From positions 1 to 64,000 of the forward strand of contig MQRK01238503.1 of NCBI GenBank assembly GCA_001938485.1: a stretch of DNA of 64,000 nucleotides, written 5' to 3'. The notes below the pieces were generated by a model that saw only the letters and a program-made list of their open reading frames with translations, was not told the DNA's origin and made no database searches. The translations under genes were made by a program, and so were the position numbers. The DNA comes from Girardia tigrina (Eukaryota). Below, piece after piece: positions 155 through 62,750 of the stretch; the stretch's first letter is position 1, and every line of letters starts with the position of its first letter.

Positions 155-447
155 TGTGGAAAAAGAAAAAACATTAATTTTATCAATTTAAAAATTAGTT
201 AAAGGTTATTTACTTTATTTAAATTTTTGATATTAAAATGTAAAACGATTTAATATTTTTTAAAGTTTTTAAATATCTAATACTGTAATTTAAAATGCAA
301 ATTATGCTCGAATAAAACTATTCATTATGAACATCCAAAATATCAATTTTCCATCTGGGTGGGAGAAACACATTTCCAAATACTAAACTCAACATACCAA
401 ATTTAGCATACCAATTTCAACATACCAAATTTAAAATATTCCTCACA
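155..447 (-). repeat. TGTGAGGAA-family terminal repeat (LTR-like), copy 1
   Basis: Reverse complement aligns along its length with 47375-47657; contains CCATCTGGGTGGGAGAAACACA and ends TTCCTCACA. Confidence 0.75.
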
Positions 448-1084
448 ATTATTATTGATAAAATAATCCGTTGATAAAAAGAAGTATTTTTAAAAAGCTC
501 AAGCTCATTGACCCACCCTGTATACTAATCTGCATAAAGGACATTTGAAGATAAACCTGCCCAGACGTTTTTTCACATAACATTTGCTCACATGGGCATT
601 GCTTACATTTTTATGCTTTTTTATTTAATCAAACTCAAATTTTGAAATAAAATAATGCAAGACCTTAAAATCCAGAACCTCAGAACAAAAAATATACAAT
701 TTTATCCAAAAATGAGCTGCCATATTTCGAAAATATTATAATAAAATTGGAAAACTTTCTTTTTAACGTAGAATTGCAGCTCTTCAATAAACCTTTTGCA
801 TATTTGTTACCACTTTAATTAAAAATATAAACTATTTTTTGTTTGTATTTTTTCTCTTCATTTGTTTTCATATTTTTTCGTTGATTTTTTTCTATTTTAT
901 TAAAAATAACTTTACGAAATACGTTTATTTATTGAATTAATTTATTAAAGTGTAGATTTTACAAAAATCTCTCCCAGTACAAAATTGAAAATATTGTGAT
1001 GGCACTAAGAAATATTGCTCCAAATTTATTGTTTGTTCTAAAATATTGTTGTTATTAGATACCGTTTTATATTTAAAATATGAT

Positions 1085-3799: not shown

Positions 3800-4308
3800 T
3801 GTAAGTAACGTTTATGCCCCTTTCATAATTATCAAATTTAGAACTCATAATTTAACACCGCAATCTTTATTAATATCAACAATTAACATATTTAAACAAA
3901 TTTCTTGTTAATTCCAATTTTTCGCCAAAATTAATCTATTAAATGATTTTTCGATTAAATTTTGAAAATTTGCTCAATTTTAAACTTTAAAATAATTGTT
4001 ACATTTTTTACGATACTTTATCATAAAAACTAATTAATTTAAATTTACTATAAACCTTTTATTAAAATAAATTATTTCTTAAAATATTAATCCGTTAATT
4101 ATCTATTTTAAAATTTATTTAAACTTATTTCATAACTTTTATTAAAATATATCAATTGTTATGACTGCACGCATATTTTAAAAAAGTATTTATTTTTTAT
4201 GATATTTTTACTTTACATTTTAATTTTTTAATTTACTTTTTTTATATTTTCAAATAAAAATATAATAAACTATTTTTGCGAAATGTAAAGTTAACCTAAC
4301 CCCTCATA
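3800..4308 (-). mobile_element. Solo LTR of a Ty3/Gypsy element (TA...CA termini)
   Basis: 5-bp TSD AGTTT at 3795-3799 and 4309-4313; homologous to the LTR at 11017-11746 that follows an integrase end and PPT. Confidence 0.85.
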
Positions 4309-5290: not shown

Positions 5291-5462
5291 TATTCAACCA
5301 GTCAGATTGCAGTATTGACGAATCTTTGAAAAACTAATTATTTCAAATTTTTGATAAAAACAGAATAGACAAAAAGTGGTTGTAGCAAAGCAAATGCGAA
5401 TGAAACTTTATTGTATTAACAACATCAATATGATTTTTCGAACATTTAGGAATATCACTAAT

Positions 5463-6400
5463 TGGACAGGAAACCGTGTCTCCACGATTTTTTAGGAAGA
5501 GAGGTGGACAGAGAACGGTAATAAGCGCCTTTCATTTTATGAATTTCCTCTAGCGTCTCATCATCAATCTCCAAAGTCGTCACTGTTTCCTCTACATCAC
5601 TCAAAGTCATATTTAAATGTGAATCAAAAGCATTTAATTTGCCTCGTAATTCTCTATCGTTTTTTATTTTACGTAAATTCGCTCATTTAAGCTCAATCGA
5701 ATCAGATCGAGTGGTTCATCGATTACGGAAATGTCAGAATTTAAAACGTTGCCAGAAATCGGATCCATTTAAATTTCGTTTATCAATTTATATTCTTTAT
5801 TCAAAACTCAAAAAAAAGAACGATTTGCCACTGAAAAATTCAAAACACTTTTATTTTTTAACGACACCTTTTTTGTAACTTTTTTAATAATTGTGATTGC
5901 AAATCACAATTAAAATTAGCACACACACTTTAACACACACATTCACCAATCATTTTAACATACACACACTATACATATCACATATAACTTACCACACGAC
6001 ACACGCAATCATACATAAAGAAAGAAATTACCAGTGATTCATTGGTATGGAAAAATTCATTGTGCTAAGAAATGAGGATCACCATTTAATTAACTCACAT
6101 TACATAATCAATAGAGACATTATTTCACAAATTCCATTATCATTATTGATTTGTTTTAATTTCAAGTATTTCAAACCGATTTATTTATTTTATTAGTTTA
6201 TTTAATTTTGCTTACGTTATTTGAAAATTAATTCCCTTTTTGCATGGTTAATTATGCTAGTGAATATAATTTAATAACATTTTTTTTATTTAACGTTTTG
6301 TCTTTCCTATTTTCACTTTATTTTTATTTAATCCATTATATTTTTTTATTTATAAATTTCTGGCAAAAATGTTCGGTCAAATTGGCAATTATCCGCTCCA
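5463..6400 (-). mobile_element. Cargo-carrying TGGA...TCCA element, copy A (938 bp)
   Basis: TSD CTAAT at 5458-5462 and 6401-6405; first 40 nt are 36/40 and last 35 nt are 32/35 identical to the ends of 52254-53348; shared CA-rich arm. Confidence 0.9.
5536..5768 (-). pseudogene. LSM3: Intronless, 3'-truncated LSm3 (U6 snRNP Sm-like protein) fragment inside element copy A
   Basis: [34 protein letters not shown] / [44 protein letters not shown]; one A missing in a homopolymer near 5667-5670; Sm2 C-terminus absent; missed by the ORF track. Confidence 0.92.
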
Positions 6401-6797
6401 CTAATAGAATTGTCATTGCAACAATTATTCAAACTACTCTCACGATTCGACATTTTTCTTGATTAATATATTTCTGACATACTAATTCTTTTGAAAACAA
6501 ATGAAAATATTATTATAATATTAATTAATTATCAAAATCTTATTGGTTAAAATTAGATCTATATATTTTTTCAATTCCATTAAAATTTTATATTACAATA
6601 AAATAGTAAATATTATATTAAAAAATTACATTTGAAAAATATTTTAAAAATTTTTACTTTAAATTTAAATTAAATTATATTCAATTAGTAATAGTCAAAA
6701 AAATACCAATCAATCATCTGGGTAGGAGAGACACAATCCGAATGAACATGCAACATGCAAAATATAAAACAACAAACAATTCAGAACATTCCTCACA
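6401..6797 (-). repeat. TGTGAGGAA-family repeat, copy 2 (continues left of 5463, interrupted by copy A)
   Basis: CATCTGGGTAGGAGAGACACA...TTCCTCACA end; the short MSN-type ORF starting at 6453 resumes in frame on the far side of the insert. Confidence 0.75.
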
Positions 6798-10789: not shown

Positions 10790-11746
10790 GATGCATTAAT
10801 ATAATGACCGGATAATATAATACAATTAGAAGAAATTTCGAAACAGAAGATGAAGTACTAGTCAAGGTGGAAACGGGGATAAAGTAAAGATAAATATGAA
10901 GGACCGTATAAAGTCATAGAGAAAACACATGACAGAAGATATAAACTAATAAATGAAGATGGAAGAATTTTAGATCGAAACTTGCAAAATTTGAGAAAAT
11001 TCTTAAAGAAAGGGGATATGAGGGTTAGTTTAAATTTGCATTTCGCAAAAATAGTTTATTATTTTTTAATTTGCAAATTTAAAAAAAGAAAATTAAACTG
11101 TAAAGTAAAGATATCACAAAAAATAAATACTTATTTAAAATATGCTTGCAGTAATAACAATTGATATATTTTAATAAAAGTTATGAAATAAGTTTAAATA
11201 AATTTTAAAATAGATAACTAACGGATTGATATTTTAGGAAATAATTTTTTAATAAAAGGCTTATAGTAAATTTGAATTGATAAGTTTTATGATAAAATTT
11301 TGTAAAAATGTAAAAATTATTTTAAAATTTAAAATTTAGCAAATGTTCAAAATTTAATCGAAAAAATTTAATAGAATAATTTTGGGTGAGATAATTGAAT
11401 TAACAAGAAATTTGTTTAAATATGTGAATTGTTGATATTAATCCCAATGGGACCGAAACTATTTCCTTTAGAAAAAATGAATTTTTGATATTAATTCTGG
11501 TTTATTATATCTAATGGTTTATTATATCCAATATCTGTATCTGATGAGTTCAAACTCATGACTCATATATACAAAGATTATTGCACCTAATGCCGCCTGT
11601 TGCTGAGTCGTCAAATTGATGTAAAAAATATTTGAGCAGTGTTCTTTTAAAAGGACGGTGGCCCCATTCGGGTTAATAAAGATTGTGCAGTTAAATTATG
11701 AATTCTGAATTTGATAATAATGAAAGTGACATAAATGCTACTTACA
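10790..11746 (+). mobile_element. Ty3/Gypsy 3' end: integrase C-terminus, PPT and 3' LTR
   Basis: KYEGPYKVIEKTHDRRYKLINEDGRILDRN; PPT AAAGAAAGGGGA at 11005-11016; LTR 11017-11746 (TATGAGGG...ACTTACA). Confidence 0.85.
11442..11672. mobile_element. piggyBac-like MITE inserted in the LTR
   Basis: TTAA at 11438-11441 and 11673-11676; ends TCCCAATGGG / CCCATTCGGG; the homologous solo LTR has a single TTAA (empty site). Confidence 0.85.
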
Positions 11747-11952: not shown

Positions 11953-12445
11953 TGTGAGGAATGTTTTGAATTGTGTGTTGATATTGTGCATGTAGAATGT
12001 TGATTCGGATTGTGCCTCTCCTACACAGATGGATGATTGATATTTTCTTTGATTCTTACTAATTAAAAATAATTTAATTTAATTTTAAAGTAAAAAGATT
12101 TAAAATAATTTTTGAATGTATTATTTATTTTTTTAAAGTAATTTAATTTTAACCAATTAGATTCTTTATAATTTAATAATTTTTATTAACAGATTTTCAT
12201 TTATTGAAAATAATTAGTTTGAACTCAGAAAAAAATGATCAAGAGAGATGTCAAATAGTGAATGCGCTTGTAATATTAATAAATGTTGTAAACCTCATAT
12301 TGATGTTGTTAATATTATTGAACAATTAACAAAAAATACCATTGTTTTAATCATTGTAAATTTTAGGAAATGTTTTGTAAATTCAACAGAAGTCATGGCG
12401 CTGATTACCGATCATTTTACTGTCATTGAATGCTACTTGGGGTAA
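11953..12445 (+). repeat. TGTGAGGAA-family repeat, copy 3, with short ORF 12248-12445
   Basis: TGTGAGGAATGTTTT...CTCCTACACAGATGG; ORF begins MSNSECACNINKCCKPHIDVVN. Confidence 0.7.
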
Positions 12446-45665: not shown

Positions 45666-47374
45666 CTTTTTGGAAACAAAAATTAATTCTTTTTATTATT
45701 TATTGGTTGGGGTACTGTTCCATTCTTAGCCCCAACAAGAAAAATATTTTTTCAAATTTATTTCTTTGCCAGTATTTTTAAAATGATTTATCTTTAATTT
45801 TCATTAAAATAAATTTTATTGAAAAACATTTTTTTTAAAATATTTTTATCCTAAAAAATAATGTTATGATCAGAGTAATACGTGGTGTGCCGATAGAGTA
45901 AGTTTCATCTGAATCCCATAGAGCTAATGTTGTGTTACACACAGACGACTAAGAAACGCGACTTATTGACGCTTTGATATATTTTTATTTTGTGAAAACT
46001 TTCAAAAAAATTATTCTAATTCATTATAATGACCGAAAATCAAAATTTGTAAATAATAATTCTTTTATTTATTAAAATTATTTTAAAACAATATTTTGAT
46101 GATGTGTTCCGATTACGCATACATAGAACTTAATAGATACAACAAGAATTATTACACTTTTAGTTGAAAATATTTGTTCGGTTTCGTTTTTGAATAAAAT
46201 TTTCGATAAAATATTTTTTCTTTAAATGTTAGTTATAAAAGTAAGAAAAAATTTTATTAACGTCAAAGTAAAAAAAATTAACGATATATATANNNNNNNN
46301 NNNNNNNNNNNNNNNNNNNNNNNNNNNNNNNNNNNNNNNNNNNNNNNNNNNNNNNNNNNNNNNNNNNNNNNNNNNNNNNNNNNNNNNNNNNNNNNATATA
46401 TATATATATATATATATATATTCGTTAAAAGTTATGTTTTTGTTTTAACGAAAAACGGTAACTCCGTAATTGGGTGTTGTAATGTTATAATAATAAATTC
46501 TGCTATCAAAGAAATATTGATTTATTATCAAGAAAATTATTCATGACATTTGACTATATTTTTAATGCGGATTATCTTGTAAAGACATTTGAAGATAATC
46601 TTGTAATAATTCCCAATCAGAGATTGCATATCAAAATTTGTGAAGACATTCATGATAAATCGTATGAATTAATGAGAATATTTCAAAGTTGTAGAAACAG
46701 TATGGAAACGATGTTTTGGAAAATAATCACCAACAAACACGGTGTCAAACCGACCACTGGTGTTCACGAAAGCGACAGTGATTTGCAATTACAGAGAATT
46801 GACGTTTACTTTACTTGGTTGAATTGAATAGTGCCACTCTCGATTACGCTCTGAATTCGAATCTTGGTGAATTGTTTCAACCAGATTATTTCATCTGTGG
46901 TTCCTCAAGTGATTCCAACAAGTGCGAAAGAAAGACCAAGTATTCAGATATTCCCAAGTCGGTCGGCGCTTTCGGACGATTAATGAACGTATGTCCTTGT
47001 GTAATTATTATATTTATTTATATAAAAATGAATAATAATAATAATAATAAAAATAATAAAAATATTAACAAAAATAAAAACAATAAAGATAGAAATTTTA
47101 GCAAAAATATAGATGATAATAATAATAATAATAAATTAGACAACGATGCAATCGAACTCACTCATCTCCCTTGATGACCCGCTGGGGGTCAAGATATGAT
47201 AAGTGCTTCCACTGCGCTGCTGCCACAACAATATTTTTAGAAAACTTAGAATATGATTTATGTAATTTTAATTATTGTATTTTTAGTTTTTTTGATTTCA
47301 GTTAATTAAAAATCTGATTGTTAAAATTTTTTAAAAACAAAAAGCTTATTTGTATCTAAAGGTAAAATTATAAT

Positions 47375-47965
47375 TGTGAGGAATATTTTAAATTTGGTAT
47401 GTTGAAATTGGTTTGTTGAATTTTCTATGTTGTGTTTAGTATTTGGAAATGTGTTTCTCCCACCCAGATGGAAAATTGATATTTTGGGTGTTCACGATAA
47501 TTAATTATTCGAGTATAATTTGAATTTTAAAGTACAGCATAAGATATTTAAAAAACTTTAAAAATATTAAATCGTTTCAAATTTTAATATTAAAAATTTA
47601 AATAAAGTAAATAACTTTTAACTAAGTTTTAAATTAAATAAATGTTCTTTCTTTACATAAAATCATTTTTTAAATAAAATTAATATGTAAATAAAATAAA
47701 TAATAAAATTACAAAATTTGAACTTTATAAATAAAATCTGAAAATAATGAAAATTTGTTCGAATAATTGTTTATTAACAAACATTAATAAAAAATTATCA
47801 ATTTAGAACGATGTCGAATGACGAGAGTTTTGCTGAGAATTGTCCAAAAGACAATTCTGACTGTATTGAAAATAAAAGTTCGGAAACCCATGTTGGTGTT
47901 CTTAATAATAATGAAATAGAAAAATCCGAAAATTTTCAAAAAATTAAAATAATAATAAATTAAAC
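47375..47965 (+). repeat. TGTGAGGAA-family repeat, copy 5, with short ORF at 47811
   Basis: Aligns to 155-447 (reverse complement); ORF MSNDESFAENCPKDNSDCIENKSSETHVGVLN. Confidence 0.75.
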
Positions 47966-51377: not shown

Positions 51378-52253
51378 TTTTTCTTTTAACTTTACTCTAA
51401 TTATTTAATAATATTTTTTTACTTTACTTTAATCACTTTGGAATTATTTATTTAATTATTAATTTGATTTTACTTTTAATTATTTTTTAATTAATTATTT
51501 TATTTAATTTATTTATTTAATTCACTTTAAATTTATCATTTTTATTTATTCTTTTACTTATTTAATTTAATTTTACTTAATTTTATTTATTTAATGTTTT
51601 AATTTAAATTGGGCTCAAGTAAGGGTCAAAAATAATCGCAACGCGATCAATTATTAATTAACTAATTTATTCGAAACACATATTCCTCTAAAAAAACTTA
51701 CTCAGGAATGCCTAAATTAGTTGGACAAAAATTCTTTTTGATAAATTAAATAGAAGTGCCAATTAAATCCATAAATCTTAAATTATCATTCAATCAGAAA
51801 AACGAAAATGCATTTTTTTAAATAACAAATAAAGAAAAAAGGCTCATTCAAAATGCGGAAGAGTACCTGACGAACGAAAGAGCAGCGAAGAATTCGATTT
51901 TCACACAAATCACCTTTTTGATTTCTGACACCTGAGAACCGTGATCGAGCAAACTACACCGTAGTTGCATCACATCGAAACACATATTAATATCAGAATC
52001 GATTAAATTGTTTAAAATTGTGAATTTAAAATCGAATTTTGGTGATTTCTTTTTCGCTTAAATTAATATTGAAAAAAAAGAAAATTTTAATTTGCTAGTT
52101 TTTTTGAAAAAAATAATTGATAAAGAAATTTAGATAACTAAAAGATATTTGATTTTAAATTTTAACGTCCAAGTTAATCAGATATCAAAAGTAGCTTCAT
52201 ATTATTATTGTAGTAGTTCTAGTTAAAATGACTAAAAAATTTATCTTTATTAG

Positions 52254-53348
52254 TGGACAGGAAGCCGTGTCTCCGCGATATTTTAGAAAGAGAAGAATTG
52301 TTTCTCATTGTGCACGTCGGTTGAAAAGTGCTTTTCATTTTATTGAACAAAATATTCAGCGGAATCCCATCTCGTTTACGCAATTAAAATATGGCGATAT
52401 CCCAACCGAGAAAATGATGACATGCATCTTTATCATAGATCAACCGCACAATAAACGGGTGATTAATCGCCACCAAAATGTTGCGCTCCATTTGTGTTCG
52501 CAATCGATCCCTCAATTTTAATGAAGCTTTCCGCAACACTTTAATCGCATAAAGATTTCCGGAATGAATACCTTTGGTTTTTCGAACTAAATAAACCTGG
52601 CCGAATGATCCTTGACCTAAAATTCTCAATAACTGAAATTGTGACGGATCAACTTTTTCATTTTGATTCACTAATTCCGTCACATTGACCTCAGTAATCA
52701 ACTCATGATTGTCAAAATTAAAAACAAAATCCATTTAAATCGACANTGTTTCAAGTTTTCAAAAACTTATTTTTTAAATTGAATTAAGAGAACTCCTTTT
52801 TTTATTTAAAAGAAATTGGAAATTGAAATTGACAAATTCTCTTTTTTTAACGTTTTTTAACATTGAATTTAAAAATTGATTTAAATTTCACCGTTTTTGA
52901 AAATTGATTTAAAAAAATTGTGATCATTATTCACAAATAAATTTAACACATACACAACATACACACCTTCAGCCAATCCCAATCATTTACATTTCATTAA
53001 ACACAAACATACACACAAAACACGCAATCACATTCACACAAACAAAGACATACTTACATGCAAAGATTCATTTAATTACATAAATTAACAATGAGGCTCA
53101 CCACTTAGTTATACAATTATTTCCTCGAATTAATAGATCGATGAATATCGAATCGGAATCGGTGTCTGTTTTCTGTCGACAATTCACTCATTTCTTTTTT
53201 AATATATTTCATTTTAATTTAATTTGTTTTTTATTTATTTTACTTTTAACTTAATTAATTATTTAATTTATTAGGTTAATTATATTTTTTATTTATATTT
53301 TCCGGAAACTAGCAAAATGTTCGGTCAAATCAGCAATTCTCCGCTCCA
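52254..53348 (-). mobile_element. Cargo-carrying TGGA...TCCA element, copy B (1095 bp)
   Basis: TSD ATTAG at 52249-52253 and 53349-53353; termini and arms homologous to 5463-6400. Confidence 0.9.
52434..52734 (-). pseudogene. Intronless fragment of the p90 ribosomal S6 kinase (RSK) N-terminal kinase N-lobe inside element copy B
   Basis: [27 protein letters not shown]...[40 protein letters not shown], then unrelated sequence. Confidence 0.93.
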
Positions 53349-53749
53349 ATTAGTATTTTTGTTTATCTTGTAAATTTTGACATAGTAAAGGATTTGTTAA
53401 AATCATGTTCAAATCAATTTATATTCATAAGTTACTCAATGTACTCAATGAACTTAAGATTTTAACATCAGTAAAAAGATAGGAAATTTCCATTATAAAA
53501 TATATTTTAAAATATCACTCTAATTAATGAATATTTAAACAATTATGCTTCTTTGCTAACTACCACAAATCAGAACATACAGCTGGTGTGTAGTTTGAAA
53601 TTGACATTTAATTAAAATATTTGATACAACTAATATGGCATCTAAGTAAAGTTATTAATTTCATTATAGAATCCTTTGACATGAAACTTTTAAATCCAAC
53701 TTGTCTAAACAATTTGATGTAGAATTCAAAGCAGCAAACAATTAGATTT

Positions 53750-56700
53750 AAATCAAAAAATACCGGATATTCTTAAGAGATCAGACAAGATGAAGACTTA
53801 TTAAAATGACGGACAATGAACAGTATCTTACTAAACAAGAGAGTAGAAGAAAAATAAGAATGGATGATTAAGATGATGTGAAGAGTTAAAGAACAAATAG
53901 CAGGTGAAGGTCAGATAAAAGCTAAAAAGCAGCACTGAAAATAAAGATAATGAGGATACAAGGAAGGATGACTATGAAAATTGTGATATTGAGATTCCTC
54001 TTCACTATAAGAAGCAACTTACTGATGAATTAATGTTTGCTATAGATTTGTCTTAGAAATCCTGAAGTTCGCAAGAAACATTGAGTCATCTGGATATTTT
54101 ATCTACGTTAAATTGTCAAATTTAATTTTTTTGCAGCAGCAAGAGCAACATAGATAGGGGACATTACTCAATCTCTGCAATCTAATCTAATTATGATTAA
54201 AACTGAAGTCAGACATAAAAGTAATTCGAGAGGTAGTATTCCCTGAGATAGAAAAATAATCGAAAGCAGTACTCAAACGCAAAATGTTAAGTCGAAAGTA
54301 GACAGATTAGCTTAAATTGTAACTGGTTTTGACAATGAAAAAAAGTTAGGAATCATAAGACTTCAGACCGGAACTCGTGTTAAAGTACAACTATTAATAA
54401 CATTTCAGCTTCTGAGCTTGGGGCGATTGAATTATGGCATTATCAAAATGTTTTTTGACATTACTTCCAATAACACTGGAATCATTAAAGGGACTTGCAA
54501 ATTGTTTAAGTAACAGATTGATCGAAACTATAGTATTTCTTGTGACACCACGATATATTGTTTCACTCTCTGGTTGATGCTTCTATTAGTCCCCATACTT
54601 ATCTATTTAAATGATTTAATCTAGTAGGACCTAACATTTATCATAAAATTTACAGATCTTTCCATGAGTAATGACTGGAAAAACAATTCTAACTGTGGCA
54701 GTCTTTAGCATGTCATTTTGAGAAGCTCTTGCCATAGGTCACGGGAAGGAGATATCAAGAGATACATAAATTTTGATTATTGATACTAGTGTCATGACCC
54801 GCTTGTTCGTAGCAATTTTGAACGCTCAGAGCCCCCAGTGACTATTAAGGGTCAGTCACAACCCGATCTCAACTTATACTATTTATAGGCTGTTTTTTAA
54901 TACTCATTTAAACGCTAGATTTATTTATGGGTCGGACGCCTCTTCTCGCTCGACATCTGTCTGGCAGTGCCGAGTCTTAAGGGCCTGTGGGTTCGGATAA
55001 AGATGGGATGGGCTACGGGGCCCCCACCTAGCGGAGTGTCGCTCGGGGATGATTTATGCTTTATGTCTGTGTAATATGAGACTTACGGCAATGTTGTGTC
55101 CGCATGTGAACTTAATGCATCTTTTTGTTATGTTTTATTAACTTGTGGCACTGTGCATGTCATTGCGTAACTGAAGGAGACATTGTGTTAGGGCGTATCG
55201 TCAAGGGGAGTTATCTAAGTTTACCCCACCATCATGCCGTACCGGAACCGTTATCTATTATATAATTTGAAAGTCGACAATCAACAGCAGCTTTAACTAA
55301 CCCTACTTTGCTCTTATTCTATTGATGCGAATCTGTTTCTGTCTGTAGTATTTTTATCGATCGGCTTTCTATACTCGGCCCAATCCGTTACGAATTTATA
55401 AATCGCTTAATTCATAAACTTCCTATAGTATATTTTCGTGTCAAAATTATTCAATTCTTTAAAATTCACATCATTTATTTTAACTTATCGGTCCCTTAAA
55501 AATTATTATTGATATAAAATAACGTATAAAAATAAGAAGCAATATTCACGATTATCGGTACTCATTCTCTGTAATTATTGATCGTTTAATCTATAAAATT
55601 ATTAATGTAGAATTAACCGTTTTAGAAATCGTTTGATTCTAAATTCCGTTGTTAAAATAAGTCGTTTGGTAATATAAATTCTAAATTCTATCCTTAAAAT
55701 GAAATGTTTGAGAATAAAAAAAAATAAATTGTTCGAGAATAAACATAAATTTCAAAACTTGATAAAAAAAATTAAATTAGAAAGCCACAAGATTGCGAGT
55801 AAATTTATATTTGTTTGAATAAACTAATTTTAATTTATCACCGCGTAGAAGAAACAAACATCCCAGTGTTCTCCTCGCGAATTATATCATCCGGTATGGA
55901 CGCACTAACGGTCCCATTCCGCCCAGCCACGGCTCGGCGCGGTTGCCCCGGATAAATATTTCCATGGGTATCGACATTACGTCGATGATTATGAGGAGCG
56001 GTGACTCTCCGTCACTTTCTTGCGGCGTATCTAAGGACATTCCAGTTCGAGGCGTTAAAGGAGATGACGGCGGTGGCGACGGTCGTTTAAATACGAATTC
56101 TAAAAAGTAATTTACTGCAAATTCTTTATTCAATTACTAATGGGTTAAAATCGAAACCACATATAAATTAAATGCATATTCCCTACTTAATTATTCTTGA
56201 TTAAAATCGAAATAACACACAAGATTAACGGCAATACATATATTCAAATGATAATAAAAATTACGTTTAAAATTAATCTTTCGTCTACAACTGTAATCGG
56301 CCTTCCGGAGGAATACTCTTCGGTCGCTTTTGTACAAATTAGATTCGTTTATGGTACGATAACTTCAGTCCGTTAGAATTCTCCTTCAGCTGAGGGGTTC
56401 GTACTTCGGCCAAAATATTCTCGCAATTGTCCGTGTAATGTCTTTTAAATTGACTGGTGAAGGTTCGAAATGCGCTTTTATAATTAAGTAGTGGAATTTT
56501 TCTTTTTATTGTTGTGTGTTGTGTCTTTTTTAACAAAATGTCCATTCTACTTATAGGGTCGGAAGGACACCCCTGACTCCCACCTCAGCCAATTAGCCGG
56601 CTGTCTGGCTTTTTATTGTTGCTGGTTGGATGGCCAAGTACGTGTGTCCTTTAGAATTTTTGAAATTTTAAACATTTTTATTTTTATTATAGGACCTACT

Positions 56701-57800
56701 GCCCGTGTGCCGGCTTGCATACGCATATTATGGAAGTCGGTGTGCGGTCAAACGAGGACAATGTTACTATTTTTAAATTCGAGGGCTGATTCAGCGTAAG
56801 ATCTTAATTAACCTTTGTTTTTTAATTAATAATTTCTTGTTTTTCTCGGGGGCGTAACTTCTCTCGGGGAACCGTCACGAACTTGCGGGCGGCCTACAAA
56901 GTTTGGTCTCGTCGAGACCTTTCGCTGAAGGGTCGGCTGGCCTTCTAGGACCACCGGATTGTCCTGGAGGTGATTTCTTTGTTTTCTGTCGGAATTTTTT
57001 AATTACTTATTTCGTTTCAGGGTCGGCAATTCTTCTCAGAGCGTCGCAAAAGGGTATTGCAGGAACTCCGGGATTCTACGTCAATGTAAACGATAATTGT
57101 CGTAACTGATTACAATTTATTTTTCTTTTTCAATATATGTATTTTATGGTCTTTGTCTTTTCTCTTTTGTAAAATTGTATGTTATTTACTATAATAGGTT
57201 TTTGACCGCAACACTAGTCTCTTTTTTACATGAACAGCCATAATGGTTTTGTGTTTCAAGTGCTTACCATTTGGTGATGTGGACGATGAAAATTATTTAC
57301 ACTTTGATCTACTAATTTAGAAATAAAATTAAAGTCACGCCTAATGAATAAACCCCTCTGAAAGAATTTTTCTCATTTTCAAATCACATTTATATGAAAG
57401 TAATGATCGTCTTTCCTGTGACTTGTGATATTACTGAAGATGATTTTTTTCTTTTTCGAGATATCTCACAGTATGTTAGCATCAACAAGATATTTTCTGT
57501 CATAGCAAGAAAGAAGCTTTGAAAGACATACCTGGTATGCCAGGCTGAAGAATATTTCTATAATTTGATTTCAGTTAATATTTCTTTAGATCTGAAGAAC
57601 AAATCGTTCAAGCAAAGTTTTAGTCTAGTGGTAAGTAACTAAATTGATATAGTAACTAATCCAGAGGACTGCACTGATTAACAGATAAAATTACTACATA
57701 AGATGTTAGAGATTTCACTCAGCATACTACTCAGATTGTGTTGTTAGTGCCATCAAAGTTATAAATGTCATTGCTAGCCGTTCTGCAATAACAATGTCTA
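53750..57800 (+). mobile_element. Highly decayed hAT-like transposase split by a solo LTR
   Basis: FDITSNNTGIIKGTC left of the insert; AYHLVMWTMKIIYTL right of it (family motifs FDTTxxNTG and HxARWMxK). Confidence 0.55.
54790..57213. mobile_element. 2.4-kb TG...CA insertion, probable long solo LTR
   Basis: Termini TGTCATGACC / GACCGCAACA, 4-bp TSD CTAG at 54786-54789 and 57214-57217; no transposase or pol inside. Confidence 0.7.
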
Positions 57801-59270
57801 CATGCAGTAATACAAAGGGAATCAGAAAAGCAGAATGCTGTAGGTTACTGAAAACAACAGAAAAAAGTACCAAGTTCACTGAAATTTACTCTGAAGTCGT
57901 ACAAGACGCGTATTTCTTTTAGTAATACTTAATTCTTTCACTAACAGTGACGTACATATTCACAGAATGAGGTACTGAAACAGTAACATTCCACATGCTT
58001 TAAGTTTTTACATCGTACTAATTATATATTTCTTGTATACTTACAGTTATCAAAGTAGAAAAATATCGCATTAATATCCTTTATAAATATTGTCAGTTCA
58101 GATAATTATATAGAGTAAATGCCACATGTTTTATCATTAAGATAAAATTTTAGAATGTTGATTATAGATGATTGATACAGAAATCTAAATATATTCGTCT
58201 AAAAATATTCTCGATTTAAAATATAAAGTCTAATGGGTTTCGTAAATGTTCGGTCAATTAAAAATAGCTCCTTATTTGGTTTTTACGCTATTAAAGTCGA
58301 ATAACGAATGAGGGCTTTTGAGTTTTAGAATGTTGAGATCAAAAAGAGATGATCATATAAGAAGAAATTATCTAAATTTAAAATATTTTCATTGCATATG
58401 AAGTGGTTATAAAAGAACTCACTGTTGTAAACAAAAATATATTTAATGAACAATAGAACATTAAAATAAAAACTGGAATTTCGGCAAGTAATAAATGCGA
58501 TGACATCAGTTATTACTATTAGAAACGATCAAGTAAAGGAAATACATCAAAATGAATGTTTTCGCAATAATGACAAAGGATCAGGGAAACAAGGTGATAT
58601 GGTCAGCGAACTCCACGAAAAAATATAAGTGTGGTTGTTTAGGGATTTGAAGAGGTAATTACACGCTTGGAAATGCTTCGCTCAAAGTTTGTAAATTAGA
58701 TTGTTGGAATATTAATACTATAATAGAATTATGATTTCTGTCCTTCAGTCTGTGTGAAGTTCTTAGAGTTCAGTAAAACAAATTTAATTATTTTTTAAAA
58801 TGACAAAACAACCGATTGATCCGGAATCTACGCGACGAGGCGATTCCAACGATGTACCTCCGCCACAGATCCGACGAGGAGAAGTCAATGAATCAACGAT
58901 GAAAAGGGTCAACATAAATACAAAAAAATCAATATCAACAATACGAAACGCAAAGAAGGAAATATTATGAATTTGGAGTAAAAATCGATTGATCTTAGAC
59001 CTACTCGACGAGAGTAGTCCGAAAATCTTGCTCCGTCGCGGTTTAGAGAAGTTGAAGTTGGGGAATTCGGTAATAAAAGTATTAATTCATTTAATAAATC
59101 GATAAATGAATTACATTACATCACTTCCGATCTGCCCCCCTCAAAAATTAAGAAGAAAATCAATAGCTTATTTATTTCTAAGACTTTCGACATTAATATA
59201 AAAATAATTTATTTATTTAGTTAATTTATTAATAATTTATTCATTCAATTAATTATGAATTATTAATTTG

Positions 59271-61850
59271 TGTTGGGGCAGATCGGAAGTCTTTCCGTTT
59301 ATCCCGATATGCTTAATATATTTTACTAATTAATACTATAATAGAATTTTGATTTCTGTCTGTGTGAAGTTCCCGATGATGAAAGTGATTTTTTAAAGGT
59401 TTTTTACATTTTTTATAATTAATTTTATTTTTATTTAAACTTTTTTGTGCCATTATTTATTTTTATTTTATAAATATTATATAAAAAATAATTAAAAAAA
59501 TTAACAACAATAAAAAGCATTCTAAAAAAGTTCTATTTGTAATATGAATTAATAATTCATTTTTTAAATGAATAAACTGCTGATTGTGATTTAATTTCAA
59601 AAATATATGTTTCGAGTGTGACTTTATTCTTTCCGACAACAAGCTATCGCGGCATCGATGAAGGGGATAAAATTCACAGATTCGGTGCGACTGTTCAAGG
59701 GCGATGGAGATTTCGAATCATGGTGCGGTATATTTGAAGCAGTGGCAACCATATGCGGGATTGACAAGGCGAACACGATACCCATGATGTTAGAAGGCCG
59801 TGCGTTCGAACTGTTCTCAAGAATGGAGAGCAGTGCCCAAGGTGATTACGAGTAGGTAAAATTGACGCTAATAGATGCGTTCGGACCAGATTCAAAAACC
59901 GCTTATGATGATTTCCGTACGAGAGTCCTTTAGCACGGGGAATCGATTGATGAATTCGTGGCAGCGTTAAGGTGATCTGAAAAGATTGTGTGTCACGATC
60001 AGGAGCCGCAAGAGCCACTGCTCAAACAAGCCTTTCTGGTGGGTCTTCCAGATGTAGTAGCAAGGCACATCACATCGGAAGTGGTGAAGGACGTTGCAAC
60101 AACTAATTCCAGTTGCGCGTGCTTTACTTCGCACTAATCGACCAAGAGCTGGAGCGACTGGTGCCGCAGCCGTGTCGGGGAACGACATCGCCGGAAAAAA
60201 AGGAGATGCCGACTTCTGTAGTGGCATCAGAAGTCAATTTGGTAAGGGCGCTGAGATGGTTCAGGAAAGGCCACCGGCAAAGCGACTGCTGGTCCGCACT
60301 GAAGTGGGTGGCGCATTCTACGGTCGCACGCCGGTCCGAGGGGTGTTTCATTTGCGGCGCCAGGGGGCATTGTTGTAAGGACTGCCTATGCAGAGGCCAG
60401 CCGGCGGAAAACGAGTAGCAGGATTTCACGGTTGCGCGAGTCGGATGCCTACGAGGCATTGTGCAAAATTAACTATAATTAATGTGCTAATTGACGGGCA
60501 GCGCGTGAGAGCGCTCGTGGATTCTGGGTGTTCTACGTCAATGATTGACGAGAAATCGGTAGACTCAGAAAAAATAGATCGAGTTAATGAATATTTGCAG
60601 ACAGTTTTCGGTCCGGCAGTGGTAGAGTGAGGTGCTTGGATAAAGCTCGATGTAGAGGGCCGGCGATTATCTTGCTGGACCCTGCTCGCAAAGGACCTAA
60701 GCGAGATCGGAGTGGGTATACTGTTGGGGATAAATGTAATAACTCAACTAGGAAGAATCGTAATCGGTGGAAATGGAATTCTGTCAGCTTTTGGGGCAAG
60801 CCAAAAGAGCAGGTTCACCCTCGAAAAGGAACTGCAGTCAAACGACCACAACAGGACATTTGTATCGGAGTCGAATGGGGTTCCTAGTAACGGTCCAGAT
60901 CGAAAAACCGATACGGATTTCACTGCAGAATGTGACGGGGTTTCTTGGTCTGTCAAGTGGCATTGGAAGGTGGAAAACCACCCCCGGTGCATAATAGTGT
61001 GACCCAATACGCATCTGGGAAGATTTACGAAGAAGAAGTTAGTGCAGAACTTCATGAGTGGAAAAAGAGAGTGTGGTTAATGTGAACGCCCGCGGAAGCC
61101 AACACTCCCACTAATGGCAATAGTTCAAGAAGCCAAAGAGAAAGTCCGTCCGGTGCTCGATTTCAGAGAGATGAACGAGTCAATATCGAGACACACAGCA
61201 GAGAGTCTTGTCTGTGGATGCAAGATCAGAAAGTGGCACCGCATGGGAAGTTATTTGAAAATCGTTGATTTAAGGCGTGCATGATTGTAGATCAAGGTCG
61301 ATGAGTCGCTTTGGCCCTATCAGGTGGTGATACATCAGGGCCGATCTTGGTATTTAACTCGGTTTGGGTTTGGACTGAGTGTTGCTCCGAAGATAATGCA
61401 GAAGATGCTGCGACATGTGCTCGGATCAGACCCAGTAGTTCAGTCCAGTACCGACGCGTACTACGACGACATCGTAGTGGCTGATGGCAGTACTTAGCGA
61501 TTTGATATGGAGGTCAAACTACCGGTGGCAATAGATGGTGGCCAAGTCCTGGGATTGGCGGTGAAAGCAGCGGTAAACGGAACGCTTCAATGGTGGCGTG
61601 ACGGTGATGTTCCGGAACTTCCAGATAAATTAACTCGCCACAGTCTTTTCGTATGGACAGTACGGTTAGTGGGTCATTACCCAGTGTACGAGTGGTTGAG
61701 ACCGGCTTGCAGTATCATGAAGAGGGTCGCTGGTGGAGGAAACTGGGATACCGAGGTCCAACCGGAAGCGACTGCAATGGCAAAACAGTTGACAATGAGA
61801 ATCAAAGCAGAAGACCCAGCTCGAGGCCCTTGGGAAGTCCCAAAGACTGA
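59271..61850 (+). mobile_element. GC-rich LTR retrotransposon, decayed gag-PR-RT with candidate 5' LTR 59271-59641
   Basis: CFICGARGHCCKDC, ALVDSGCS, KVRPVLDFRE, TRFGFGLSVAPKIM, YYDDIVV, LVGHYPV..WLRPAC. Confidence 0.85.
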
Positions 61851-62394
61851 GATTTTATGTAATAATGTAGAATTATCTAGATCTCGAGAATTCTTTGTGA
61901 AAGGTGCTGTGTTAGATGAAAATATGCAGAAGTTATTAATATCCGATGATTTATTTTTATTTATTGGGGATAAACTGAAAATGGCAGAGAAAGATTTATT
62001 AATTTGTAATTCTTTAGTTACTGCACATGAAGGATTTATATGGGTTCGAATATATATATATATATATATNNNNNNNNNNNNNNNNNNNNNNNNNNNNNNN
62101 NNNNNNNNNNNNNNNNNNNNNNNNNNNNNNNNNNNNNNNNNNNNNAATAAAAGAACTCTTATTTTATTTTATAAAAATATATTTATGTATTTACAATTAA
62201 TTACAAATTCAAATGAAAGATTAGTGTTTTATTTGGCCCCTGGCCGATTTTATATTAAACTCCGGAGCCTTTGCGACAACTCGGGTTGATTGAAGTTTTT
62301 GTAAGTTTTTCTGTCACACTTTACAGCGTGTTTCTTTTTTTATATAAAGATATGAGAATTTTAAATAACTACACTTTATATACTAATTATTACT

Positions 62395-62750
62395 TTTGTT
62401 TCCTTTTATCTTTTAGACACTATTTCAGTGTTATTTAACCTCTATGTTATCTTTTGTTGCCTTTATCTTTTAGACACTATTCCAGTGTGATTTAACCTCT
62501 GTGTTATCTTTTAGACACATATCCAGTGTGATTTAACTTCTGTGTTATCTTTTGTTGCCTTTATCTTTTAGACACTATTCCAGTGTGATTTAACCTCTGT
62601 GTGTTTTTCATCATTTTACTCTATCTTTATATATGCGTACCGTTGATTGGAATTCTTTTGATCCGATCAATCGGTATTTAACGAACTATAAACAAGATGG
62701 TTGAACTATAATAGTATTTAACGAACTATAAACAGGATGGTTGAACTATA
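62395..62750. repeat. Tandem repeats: ~55-bp unit about 3.5 times, then ~40-bp unit twice
   Basis: TTTTAGACACTATTCCAGTGTGATTTAACCTCTGTG units; GTATTTAACGAACTATAAACARGATGGTTGAACTATA twice. Confidence 0.8.

What the first reader, a model, noticed from the sequence alone, without database searches (positions are those of the whole stretch)
52729..52775. Both cargos begin at the same ATTTAA-ATG-GAT context, so the start codon may belong to the element
Seen on the minus strand: copy A reads AGTTTTGAA...TTGATAAACGAAATTTAAATGGATCCG (ATG at 5768) and copy B reads AGTTTTTGAAAACTTGAAACA.TGTCGATTTAAATGGATTTTG (ATG at 52734), with 12 identical nt spanning ATG GAT. Both cargos are also in the same frame as the shared tail peptide RHGFLS, with a 12-nt length difference in the tail (copy A needs its frameshift corrected; copy B has one stop). 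Inference: the element may supply promoter, ATG and tail as an expression cassette, or this is a shared leader such as an ATG-ended spliced leader that enables strand transfer.
Basis: partly seen in the sequence, partly recalled or inferred. Interest (0 to 1): 0.72.

Follow-up and report, generated by a model that had tools for sequence, protein, structure and literature searches.

The report
Retrotransposon borrows host start codons
The shared start sequence belongs to the two host genes, not to the element; the copies are solo ends (LTRs) of a BEL/Pao retrotransposon that keeps swapping in the spliced front ends of host mRNAs, whose start codons sit in frame with a ubiquitin-Gag protein and likely start its translation.

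Summary
The 12 identical bases at both ATGs (5768, 52734) are real, but both intron-containing parent genes (RSK, LSm3) carry them natively. The element does not supply the ATG and no spliced leader is needed. The frame claim holds and leads further. A and B are solo LTRs with 5-bp target duplications, from a BEL/Pao family with 1304 exact end matches, a tRNA-Ile primer site and a polypurine tract. Its LTRs carry spliced 5' ends of at least 11 host mRNAs. 135 of 159 LTR ends with a recognised cargo are in the tail frame. That frame runs on through the LTR end and primer site into an Hsp90 piece, ubiquitin and Gag, with no stop in three natural copies (two span N gaps). Best reading: reverse-transcriptase template switches swap in host 5' ends; only in-frame captures keep making Gag-Pol; ubiquitin probably lets host enzymes cut the variable leader off. 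Translation, transcription start and cleavage are untested, no RNA data were obtained, and ubiquitin Arg74 is often replaced.

The parts
52254..53348 (-). Copy B: solo LTR (1095 bp, TG...CA) of a BEL/Pao retrotransposon; 5-bp target site duplication at 53349-53353 and 52249-52253
   Evidence: (L031)
52781..53348 (-). Element-derived U3-like region and leader of copy B, with motifs shared by most LTRs (CCAAT-box-like and TG-rich); likely promoter, start site unmapped
   Evidence: three motifs in 67, 64 and 76 of 90 full LTRs; two of them absent from 600 nt upstream of 4 of 4 parent ATGs
52735..52780 (-). Native 5' UTR of the RSK parent gene, ending in the first half of the shared 12-mer; 8-nt match to the resident leader at its 5' junction
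   Evidence: L022
52434..52734 (-). RSK cargo: parental ATG and exons 1-4 with three introns removed, ending exactly at the exon 4 donor
52254..52433 (-). Tail of copy B: remnant of an older unidentified cargo ORF plus the conserved LTR end, in frame with RSK; one stop at 52386-52384
5463..6400 (-). Copy A: solo LTR (938 bp); 5-bp target site duplication at 6401-6405 and 5458-5462
   Evidence: L097
5779..5795 (-). Leader piece inherited from the earlier 14-3-3 cargo (its spliced 5' UTR); approximate bounds
   Evidence: (L216 parent; L136, L164, L146 copies)
5536..5778 (-). LSm3 cargo: 10 nt of native 5' UTR, parental ATG (5768), exons 1-3 with two introns removed, ending at the exon 3 donor; frameshift near 5666
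5463..5535 (-). Tail of copy A: about 30 nt left from a 14-3-3 cargo plus the conserved LTR end, in frame with LSm3

Best explanation
Copies A and B are solo LTRs of a BEL/Pao retrotransposon whose LTRs carry spliced 5' ends of host mRNAs, each with its own native start codon in frame with the element's Hsp90 piece-ubiquitin-Gag frame, and that borrowed codon likely initiates the element's polyprotein. Shown: parental origin of the ATG context, intron loss, LTR anatomy, frame bias and one continuous frame into Gag. Inferred steps: (1) a host mRNA is co-packaged; (2) during minus-strand synthesis the reverse transcriptase leaves the element's R/U5 for the mRNA at a short match, runs to near its capped end, and returns to the element's leader at a second short A/T-rich match, replacing the previous cargo; (3) normal replication copies the new LTR to both ends; (4) because the first AUG of the genomic RNA now lies in the cargo, only in-frame swaps keep making Gag-Pol and spread; (5) host deubiquitinases would cut after the ubiquitin and free a constant Gag N-terminus from a variable leader; (6) LTR-LTR recombination leaves solo LTRs such as A and B, which then decay. 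Confidence by step: ATG parental 0.97, BEL/Pao LTR 0.97, cargo ATG starts Gag about 0.8, template-switch capture about 0.65, ubiquitin cleavage about 0.6.
For: Parents with introns and native context: RSK, LSm3, USP8, 14-3-3, RPB10; Sly1 internal exons. LTR anatomy: 42 of 60 solo copies have a perfect and 55 of 60 a 0-1 mismatch 5-bp duplication; primer site after the LTR end in 37 places matching the 3' end of tRNA-Ile(AAT) genes; polypurine tract before 3' LTRs; both LTRs carry the same cargo in L077 and L083; Pao A17, DUF1759, DUF1758, RT, integrase, DUF5641. Frame: 135 of 159, and 42 of 56 in loci picked by the tail motif alone; indels shared between copies are multiples of three in 8 of 12 cases downstream of the ATG but 10 of 59 upstream (Fisher p=0.001). 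Continuity: L186 has one stop-free frame from LSm3 through the primer site, Hsp90 and ubiquitin into Gag; L244 reads 468 aa from the RPB10 ATG to ubiquitin; P0241, an ENA protein, reads 616 aa from an RPB10 Met to Gag with no gap. Replacement: the RSK and LSm3 cargos are flanked on both sides by sequence of one earlier cargo type.
Against: No RNA, ribosome or protein evidence; transcription start and the R/U5 border are unmapped. In-frame Met codons lie downstream, including ubiquitin's own, so Gag could start there and the frame bias could only reflect loss of blocking upstream ORFs. Exceptions: the Usp cargo (1 of 1) and an unidentified ORF (2 of 2) are out of frame, the ankyrin ATG is off-frame in 3 of 3 gap-free copies although its domain is in frame in 5 of 6, and 14 of 173 ends had no recognised cargo. 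Most copies are broken: from ATG to LTR end only 6 of 27 RSK and 15 of 30 LSm3 gap-free copies are fully open, and no fetched copy has an unbroken gag-pol. Ubiquitin keeps its final two glycines in 10 of 12 copies but Arg74 in only 4 of 12 (Cys in 6), and Cys also in L186 and P0241, which may weaken cleavage. 3 of 6 junctions checked fall at exon ends, which plain template switching does not predict. L186 and L244 each span an assembly gap.
Confidence: 0.75

Rival explanations
1. Same element and same frame selection, but capture happens by read-in transcription and splicing: an element sitting in a host intron is transcribed from the host promoter, and the last host exon is spliced or mis-ligated onto the LTR, giving a chimeric genomic RNA that is then reverse transcribed.
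For: RSK, LSm3 and Sly1 cargos end at, or within 1 nt of, a parental exon end. The RSK joint follows a pyrimidine tract and AG in the recipient LTR.
Against: The LSm3 joint has no AG in the recipient or in the 14-3-3 parent, and shows a 4-nt match instead. 14-3-3, RPB10 and the short USP8 form join inside exons. The fetched parts of the RSK and LSm3 parents show no LTR match in the relevant intron. The 5' junction still needs a template switch.
Confidence: 0.25
2. The cargo start codon is only tolerated: Gag starts at a downstream Met (for example ubiquitin's) by leaky scanning or from a spliced or internal transcript, and in-frame cargos survive merely because they avoid a blocking upstream ORF or nonsense-mediated decay.
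For: Several in-frame Met codons between primer site and Gag; some 14-3-3 LTRs have lost the native ATG; cargo peptides are truncated and freely exchanged.
Against: About 350 codons between LTR end and Gag stay stop-free in A/T-rich DNA in L186 and P0241. Cargos begin with a 5' UTR and an A-rich ATG in all 5 parents whose 5' end was found.
Confidence: 0.2
3. One reading: the element supplies the start codon as part of an expression cassette, or a shared ATG-ended spliced leader is copied onto both cargos.
For: 12 identical nt and a common frame in the two window copies.
Against: Both parents carry the 12-mer in genomic exon 1; other cargos start in other, parental contexts; 5' UTR introns of 14-3-3 and RPB10 are spliced to the genes' own upstream exons.
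Confidence: 0.02
4. DNA-level capture by a Pack-type DNA transposon or Helitron.
For: 4-bp terminal inverted match, 5-bp duplication and multi-gene mosaics, seen in the window alone.
Against: Precise intron loss; primer site, polypurine tract, paired LTRs and BEL/Pao pol.
Confidence: 0.01

Closest known systems
LTR-mediated retroposition in animals (Tan et al. 2016, PMC5131818; passages read)
   Same: Partial, intronless host mRNAs joined to LTR element sequence at short matches (median 6 bp there), multi-gene chimeras, further rounds of copying, sense orientation; one mosquito case involves a BEL element.
   Different: There the retrocopy replaces part of the internal ORFs and the locus acts as non-autonomous. 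Here the cargo sits inside the LTR, is duplicated at both ends, starts at the mRNA 5' end, leaves gag-pol in place and is held in frame with Gag. The paper's supplements were not seen and could hold LTR-internal cases.
BEL/Pao (Belpaoviridae) LTR retrotransposons
   Same: TG...CA LTRs, 5-bp duplication, tRNA primer site, polypurine tract, gag-protease-RT-RNase H-integrase order with DUF1759, DUF1758, Pao A17 and DUF5641.
   Different: Host-derived, exchangeable transcribed LTR part; Hsp90 piece and ubiquitin in front of Gag; CCCH zinc fingers in Gag where CCHC knuckles are usual (recalled).
Yeast Ty1 5' organisation (PMC5454406; passages read)
   Same: A 53-nt 5' UTR with the primer site at nt 95-104 inside the GAG coding region: precedent for a frame that begins in the LTR and crosses the primer site.
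   Different: Ty1's start codon and N-terminus are its own and conserved; here they are host-derived and replaced repeatedly.
Ubiquitin insertions of cytopathic pestiviruses (PMC8310069; passages read)
   Same: Captured cellular ubiquitin in frame in a polyprotein, cut by cellular hydrolases to give an authentic N-terminus downstream.
   Different: RNA virus recombinants; cleavage is shown there and only inferred here, where Arg74 is often replaced.
Start-snatching by cap-snatching viruses (PMC7323901; search listing and start of abstract only)
   Same: Host 5' ends donate start codons to chimeric host-parasite frames.
   Different: There it is transient and per transcript; here it is heritable, spans several exons and appears to open the main polyprotein.
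Foreign sequence in LTRs: Cassandra 5S rDNA (10.1101/2023.07.14.548913; search listing) and BARE-2 (PMC13317346; passages read)
   Same: Non-self sequence fixed inside an LTR; BARE-2 arose by abnormal template switching.
   Different: Promoter donors, captured once; not serial protein-coding 5' ends under frame selection.

Membership tests
BEL/Pao LTR retrotransposon | Paired direct LTRs with TG...CA ends | tested here: met
   L077, L083: 96.7-99.3% identical LTR blocks, apart from indels of about 120 and 330 nt
BEL/Pao LTR retrotransposon | 5-6 bp target site duplication | tested here: met
   42 of 60 solo LTRs perfect, 55 of 60 within one mismatch
BEL/Pao LTR retrotransposon | tRNA primer site and polypurine tract | tested here: met
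   (tRNA-Ile AAT)
BEL/Pao LTR retrotransposon | gag, protease, RT, RNase H, integrase order with Pao-type domains | tested here: met
   DUF1759 6e-10, Peptidase_A17 7e-41, DUF5641 4e-22 over cut-off; DUF1758, RVT_1 and rve match below cut-off in these broken copies
BEL/Pao LTR retrotransposon | RT phylogeny within BEL/Pao | not tested
   no tree built
LTR-mediated retrocopies (Tan type) | Intronless partial host mRNA | tested here: met
LTR-mediated retrocopies (Tan type) | Short matches at both junctions | tested here: inconclusive
   5' matches of 6 and 8 nt; 3' matches of 1-4 nt at three exon-end joints; no shuffle control run
LTR-mediated retrocopies (Tan type) | Retrocopy replaces internal ORFs between the LTRs | tested here: not met
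   cargo lies inside both LTRs and gag-pol is retained
ATG-ended spliced leader (flatworm type, recalled) | Leader and AUG absent from the gene locus and added at an acceptor | tested here: not met
   the 12-mer is genomic in both parents
Ubiquitin processing signal (pestivirus type) | In-frame ubiquitin ending in two glycines before the released protein | tested here: met
   10 of 12 copies; Pfam ubiquitin 1.5e-30
Ubiquitin processing signal (pestivirus type) | Cleavage by host hydrolases | not testable with these tools
   Arg74 kept in 4 of 12 copies

The most novel reading that the evidence does not exclude
A retrotransposon with no start codon of its own: it inherits the 5' UTR, start codon and first exons of whichever host mRNA it last captured into its LTR, and uses a built-in ubiquitin to shed the arbitrary leader from Gag. 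The LTR is then an exchangeable translation-control module that samples host 5' ends and may mimic host mRNAs, and it has scattered more than a thousand promoter-plus-host-exon cassettes through the genome.
Probability: 0.5. Interest if true: 0.87.

Novelty: new variant of a known kind. Interest (0 to 1): 0.72.

Why it matters
It shows a route of gene capture that leaves the element's coding region intact and puts host 5' ends under selection to serve the parasite's own translation. It gives a natural, many-times-repeated test of cis-preference and frame selection in LTR elements. Hundreds of promoter-driven fragments of conserved genes (LSm3, 14-3-3, USP8, Sec22, Sly1, RSK, RPB10) could yield truncated proteins or small RNAs against the parents, and will confuse gene counts in this genome.

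Tried and rejected
Element-supplied ATG and spliced leader: rejected by the parents. Helitron or Pack-type DNA element: rejected by LTR anatomy. A third window copy near 58255 is only a 12-nt chance match. Two pattern searches for parents found nothing. L196 looked like the USP8 parent but is an LTR copy with an insertion. Long frames in L184, L185 and L241 are assembly gaps; L243 was listed without translation and not used; L245 and L246 run into unrelated sequence. The two unidentified cargos have no useful Pfam match, the Atlas gave only a 0.75 lead for one, and its representative search was still queued at the last collection, so their parents, native frames and junctions are unknown; they were left out of the family count. 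Sequencing runs held at most 0.17 of the words and no reads were laid, so they are no evidence. Earlier-findings look-ups were empty. Gag homologues with ubiquitin: one hit among 1986 long candidates, weak evidence on range.

Full report
Observation. The 12-mer around ATG GAT is present exactly twice in the window, at the stated ATGs 5768 and 52734 on the minus strand, and both cargos share the frame of the tail peptide. Copy A spans 5463-6400 and copy B 52254-53348; each starts TG, ends CA and has a 5-bp target duplication. The window lies in G000:C238503, a 1.43-Gb A/T-rich genome in which the 21-nt end motif has 1304 exact matches and the reversed control none. The best database match of the RSK cargo was a trematode protein at 65%, which does not fix the lineage.

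The ATG is parental. A protein search found exon-split RSK matches on four contigs. G000:C185313 has the same 5' UTR and 12-mer in exon 1, then three introns that are cleanly absent from the cargo; the cargo ends at the exon 4 donor. The LSm3 parent, G000:C145249, also has the 12-mer natively, two introns missing from the cargo, and the cargo ends at the exon 3 donor. Other cargos start in their own parents' contexts: USP8, 14-3-3 and RPB10; in the last two a 5' UTR intron is spliced out to the gene's own upstream exon. Among 173 LTR ends, 56 of 62 near matches to the 12-mer are LSm3 or RSK cargos. So neither an element ATG nor an ATG-ended spliced leader (a flatworm feature, recalled) is involved. 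I did not compute a formal probability for two parents sharing 12 nt; three of five parents begin ATG GAT or lie in an A-rich context, and the pair was picked after the fact.

The element. In 37 places the end motif is followed by a primer site complementary to the 3' end of tRNA-Ile(AAT) genes (13 pattern matches; ARAGORN called 3 genes in 2 of 6 loci). Downstream lie tandem repeats, an Hsp90 piece, ubiquitin, gag and a BEL/Pao pol, then a polypurine tract and a second LTR. In L077 and L083 both LTRs carry the same cargo. Of 78 LTRs with both ends in view, 60 are solo, 42 with a perfect and 13 with a one-mismatch 5-bp duplication. A and B are therefore solo LTRs.

The cargos. Pfam or database matches identify RSK, LSm3, 14-3-3, USP8, a longin SNARE (Sec22-like), Sec1/Sly1, a JAB/MPN protein (PSMD7-like), an ankyrin protein, a CH-domain protein (EB1-like, below cut-off), Usp and RPB10; two common cargos remain unidentified. 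The names Sec22, PSMD7 and EB1 are my reading of those domains. Copy numbers are large: 150 of 239 LSm3 candidates and 150 of 1103 for one unidentified cargo were scored. New cargos replace old ones: LSm3 took the place of the 14-3-3 N-terminal region, joining at a 6-nt match that ends at the old start codon and at a 4-nt match downstream; RSK replaced the front of the unidentified ORF, with an 8-nt 5' match.

Frame. Of 173 distinct LTR ends, 159 had a recognised cargo and 135 of these are in the tail frame; in loci picked by the end motif alone (30 plus 40 of the first 100 listed matches; 69 ends) it is 42 of 56. These copy counts are not independent and include two families whose reference frame came from the element itself. 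By family with an outside-defined frame: RSK 29 of 33, LSm3 36 of 38, 14-3-3 9 of 11, USP8 7 of 8, Sec22 17 of 21, Sly1 7 of 7, PSMD7 2 of 2, ankyrin 5 of 6, EB1 1 of 1, Usp 0 of 1: 9 of 10 families, p=3.6e-4. Left out: the two unidentified ORFs, a zinc-finger cargo with an internal break, and an unknown ORF that is out of frame in 2 of 2 copies. Indels shared by two or more copies are multiples of three in 8 of 12 cases after the ATG and 10 of 59 in the 120 nt before it (p=0.001); private indels are mostly not (23 of 57), as expected of decay after insertion.

Why the frame is kept. In 5' LTRs the tail frame does not stop at the LTR end. It crosses the primer site and repeats. L186 holds one stop-free frame from LSm3 to Gag, with LSM, HSP90 and ubiquitin matches in a single 485-aa translation. 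L244 reads 468 aa from the RPB10 ATG to the end of ubiquitin across one gap. P0241 from ENA reads 616 aa from an RPB10 Met into Gag without a gap; whether it comes from an independent sample is not known. L075 opens at the Sly1 ATG and crosses the primer site. A Gag frame that begins in the LTR and includes the primer site has precedent in Ty1 (PMC5454406, passages), and ubiquitin as a captured processing signal in pestiviruses (PMC8310069, passages).

Mechanism and limits. I commit to serial replacement of the transcribed LTR part by double template switching, as described for internal retrocopies (PMC5131818, passages), with selection for captures whose ATG opens Gag-Pol, and probable release of Gag at ubiquitin. 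Against or open: no expression data; downstream Met codons exist; most copies are broken; ubiquitin Arg74 is kept in 4 of 12 copies although the two final glycines are kept in 10 of 12; and 3 of 6 junctions checked sit at exon ends (RSK, LSm3, Sly1; not 14-3-3, RPB10, short USP8), only one with an AG acceptor, which keeps a splicing route alive.

Novelty. Nine literature searches found internal LTR retrocopies, foreign promoters in LTRs (PMC13317346, passages; Cassandra, listing only) and viral start-snatching (PMC7323901, listing only), but no report of host mRNA 5' ends inside LTRs in frame with ubiquitin-Gag. The library lacks most subscription papers and repeat databases were not searchable, so this is not proof of absence. 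Verdict: the narrow finding is explained by parental sequence, but it exposes a new variant of LTR-mediated capture with a plausible new function.

Noticed in passing
G000:C185313:8173, C145249:1667, C27722:511: Three of six cargo 3' junctions coincide with parental exon ends, only one next to an AG; could point to splicing intermediates as templates. Unexplained.
   Followed up: partly
L083:3050-4429: Gag carries two CCCH zinc fingers (Pfam) rather than the usual CCHC knuckles (recalled).
   Followed up: no
L078 and L079: LTRs with a polypurine tract before and a primer site after: tandem elements sharing one LTR.
   Followed up: no
P0131; L082: 14-3-3 cargo fused in frame directly to the leader repeats; L082 has a short leader followed by a second LTR end.
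   Followed up: no
LTR end and first 300 nt after the primer site (L071-L086): The leader repeats are complementary to the last 20 nt of the LTR, suggesting a U5-leader stem; read by eye, not folded.
   Followed up: no
L145, L171, L019, L007: A sub-type whose tail frame is closed, with a 153-aa unknown ORF in another frame.
   Followed up: partly
L117-L121, L126: Processed LSm3 copies that are not in this LTR.
   Followed up: no
L023:620-1200: Antisense stretch resembling a MANF/ARMET mRNA (recalled likeness, untested) directly before an LTR tail.
   Followed up: no
L196 (G000:C12561): A 3-kb insertion with terminal inverted repeats splits a longer USP8 cargo.
   Followed up: no
window 3800-4302 with 11022-11746, and 6621-6775 with 11971-12126: Inverted repeat pairs at 82-89% around and beside copy A, possibly DNA transposon ends.
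   Followed up: no
window 177-456 and 47366-47643: 280-nt inverted repeat pair at about 90%.
   Followed up: no
window 56300-57150, 60001-62000, 62349-62601: A GC-richer LTR-like stretch, a 49% GC block and a 41/57-nt tandem array.
   Followed up: no
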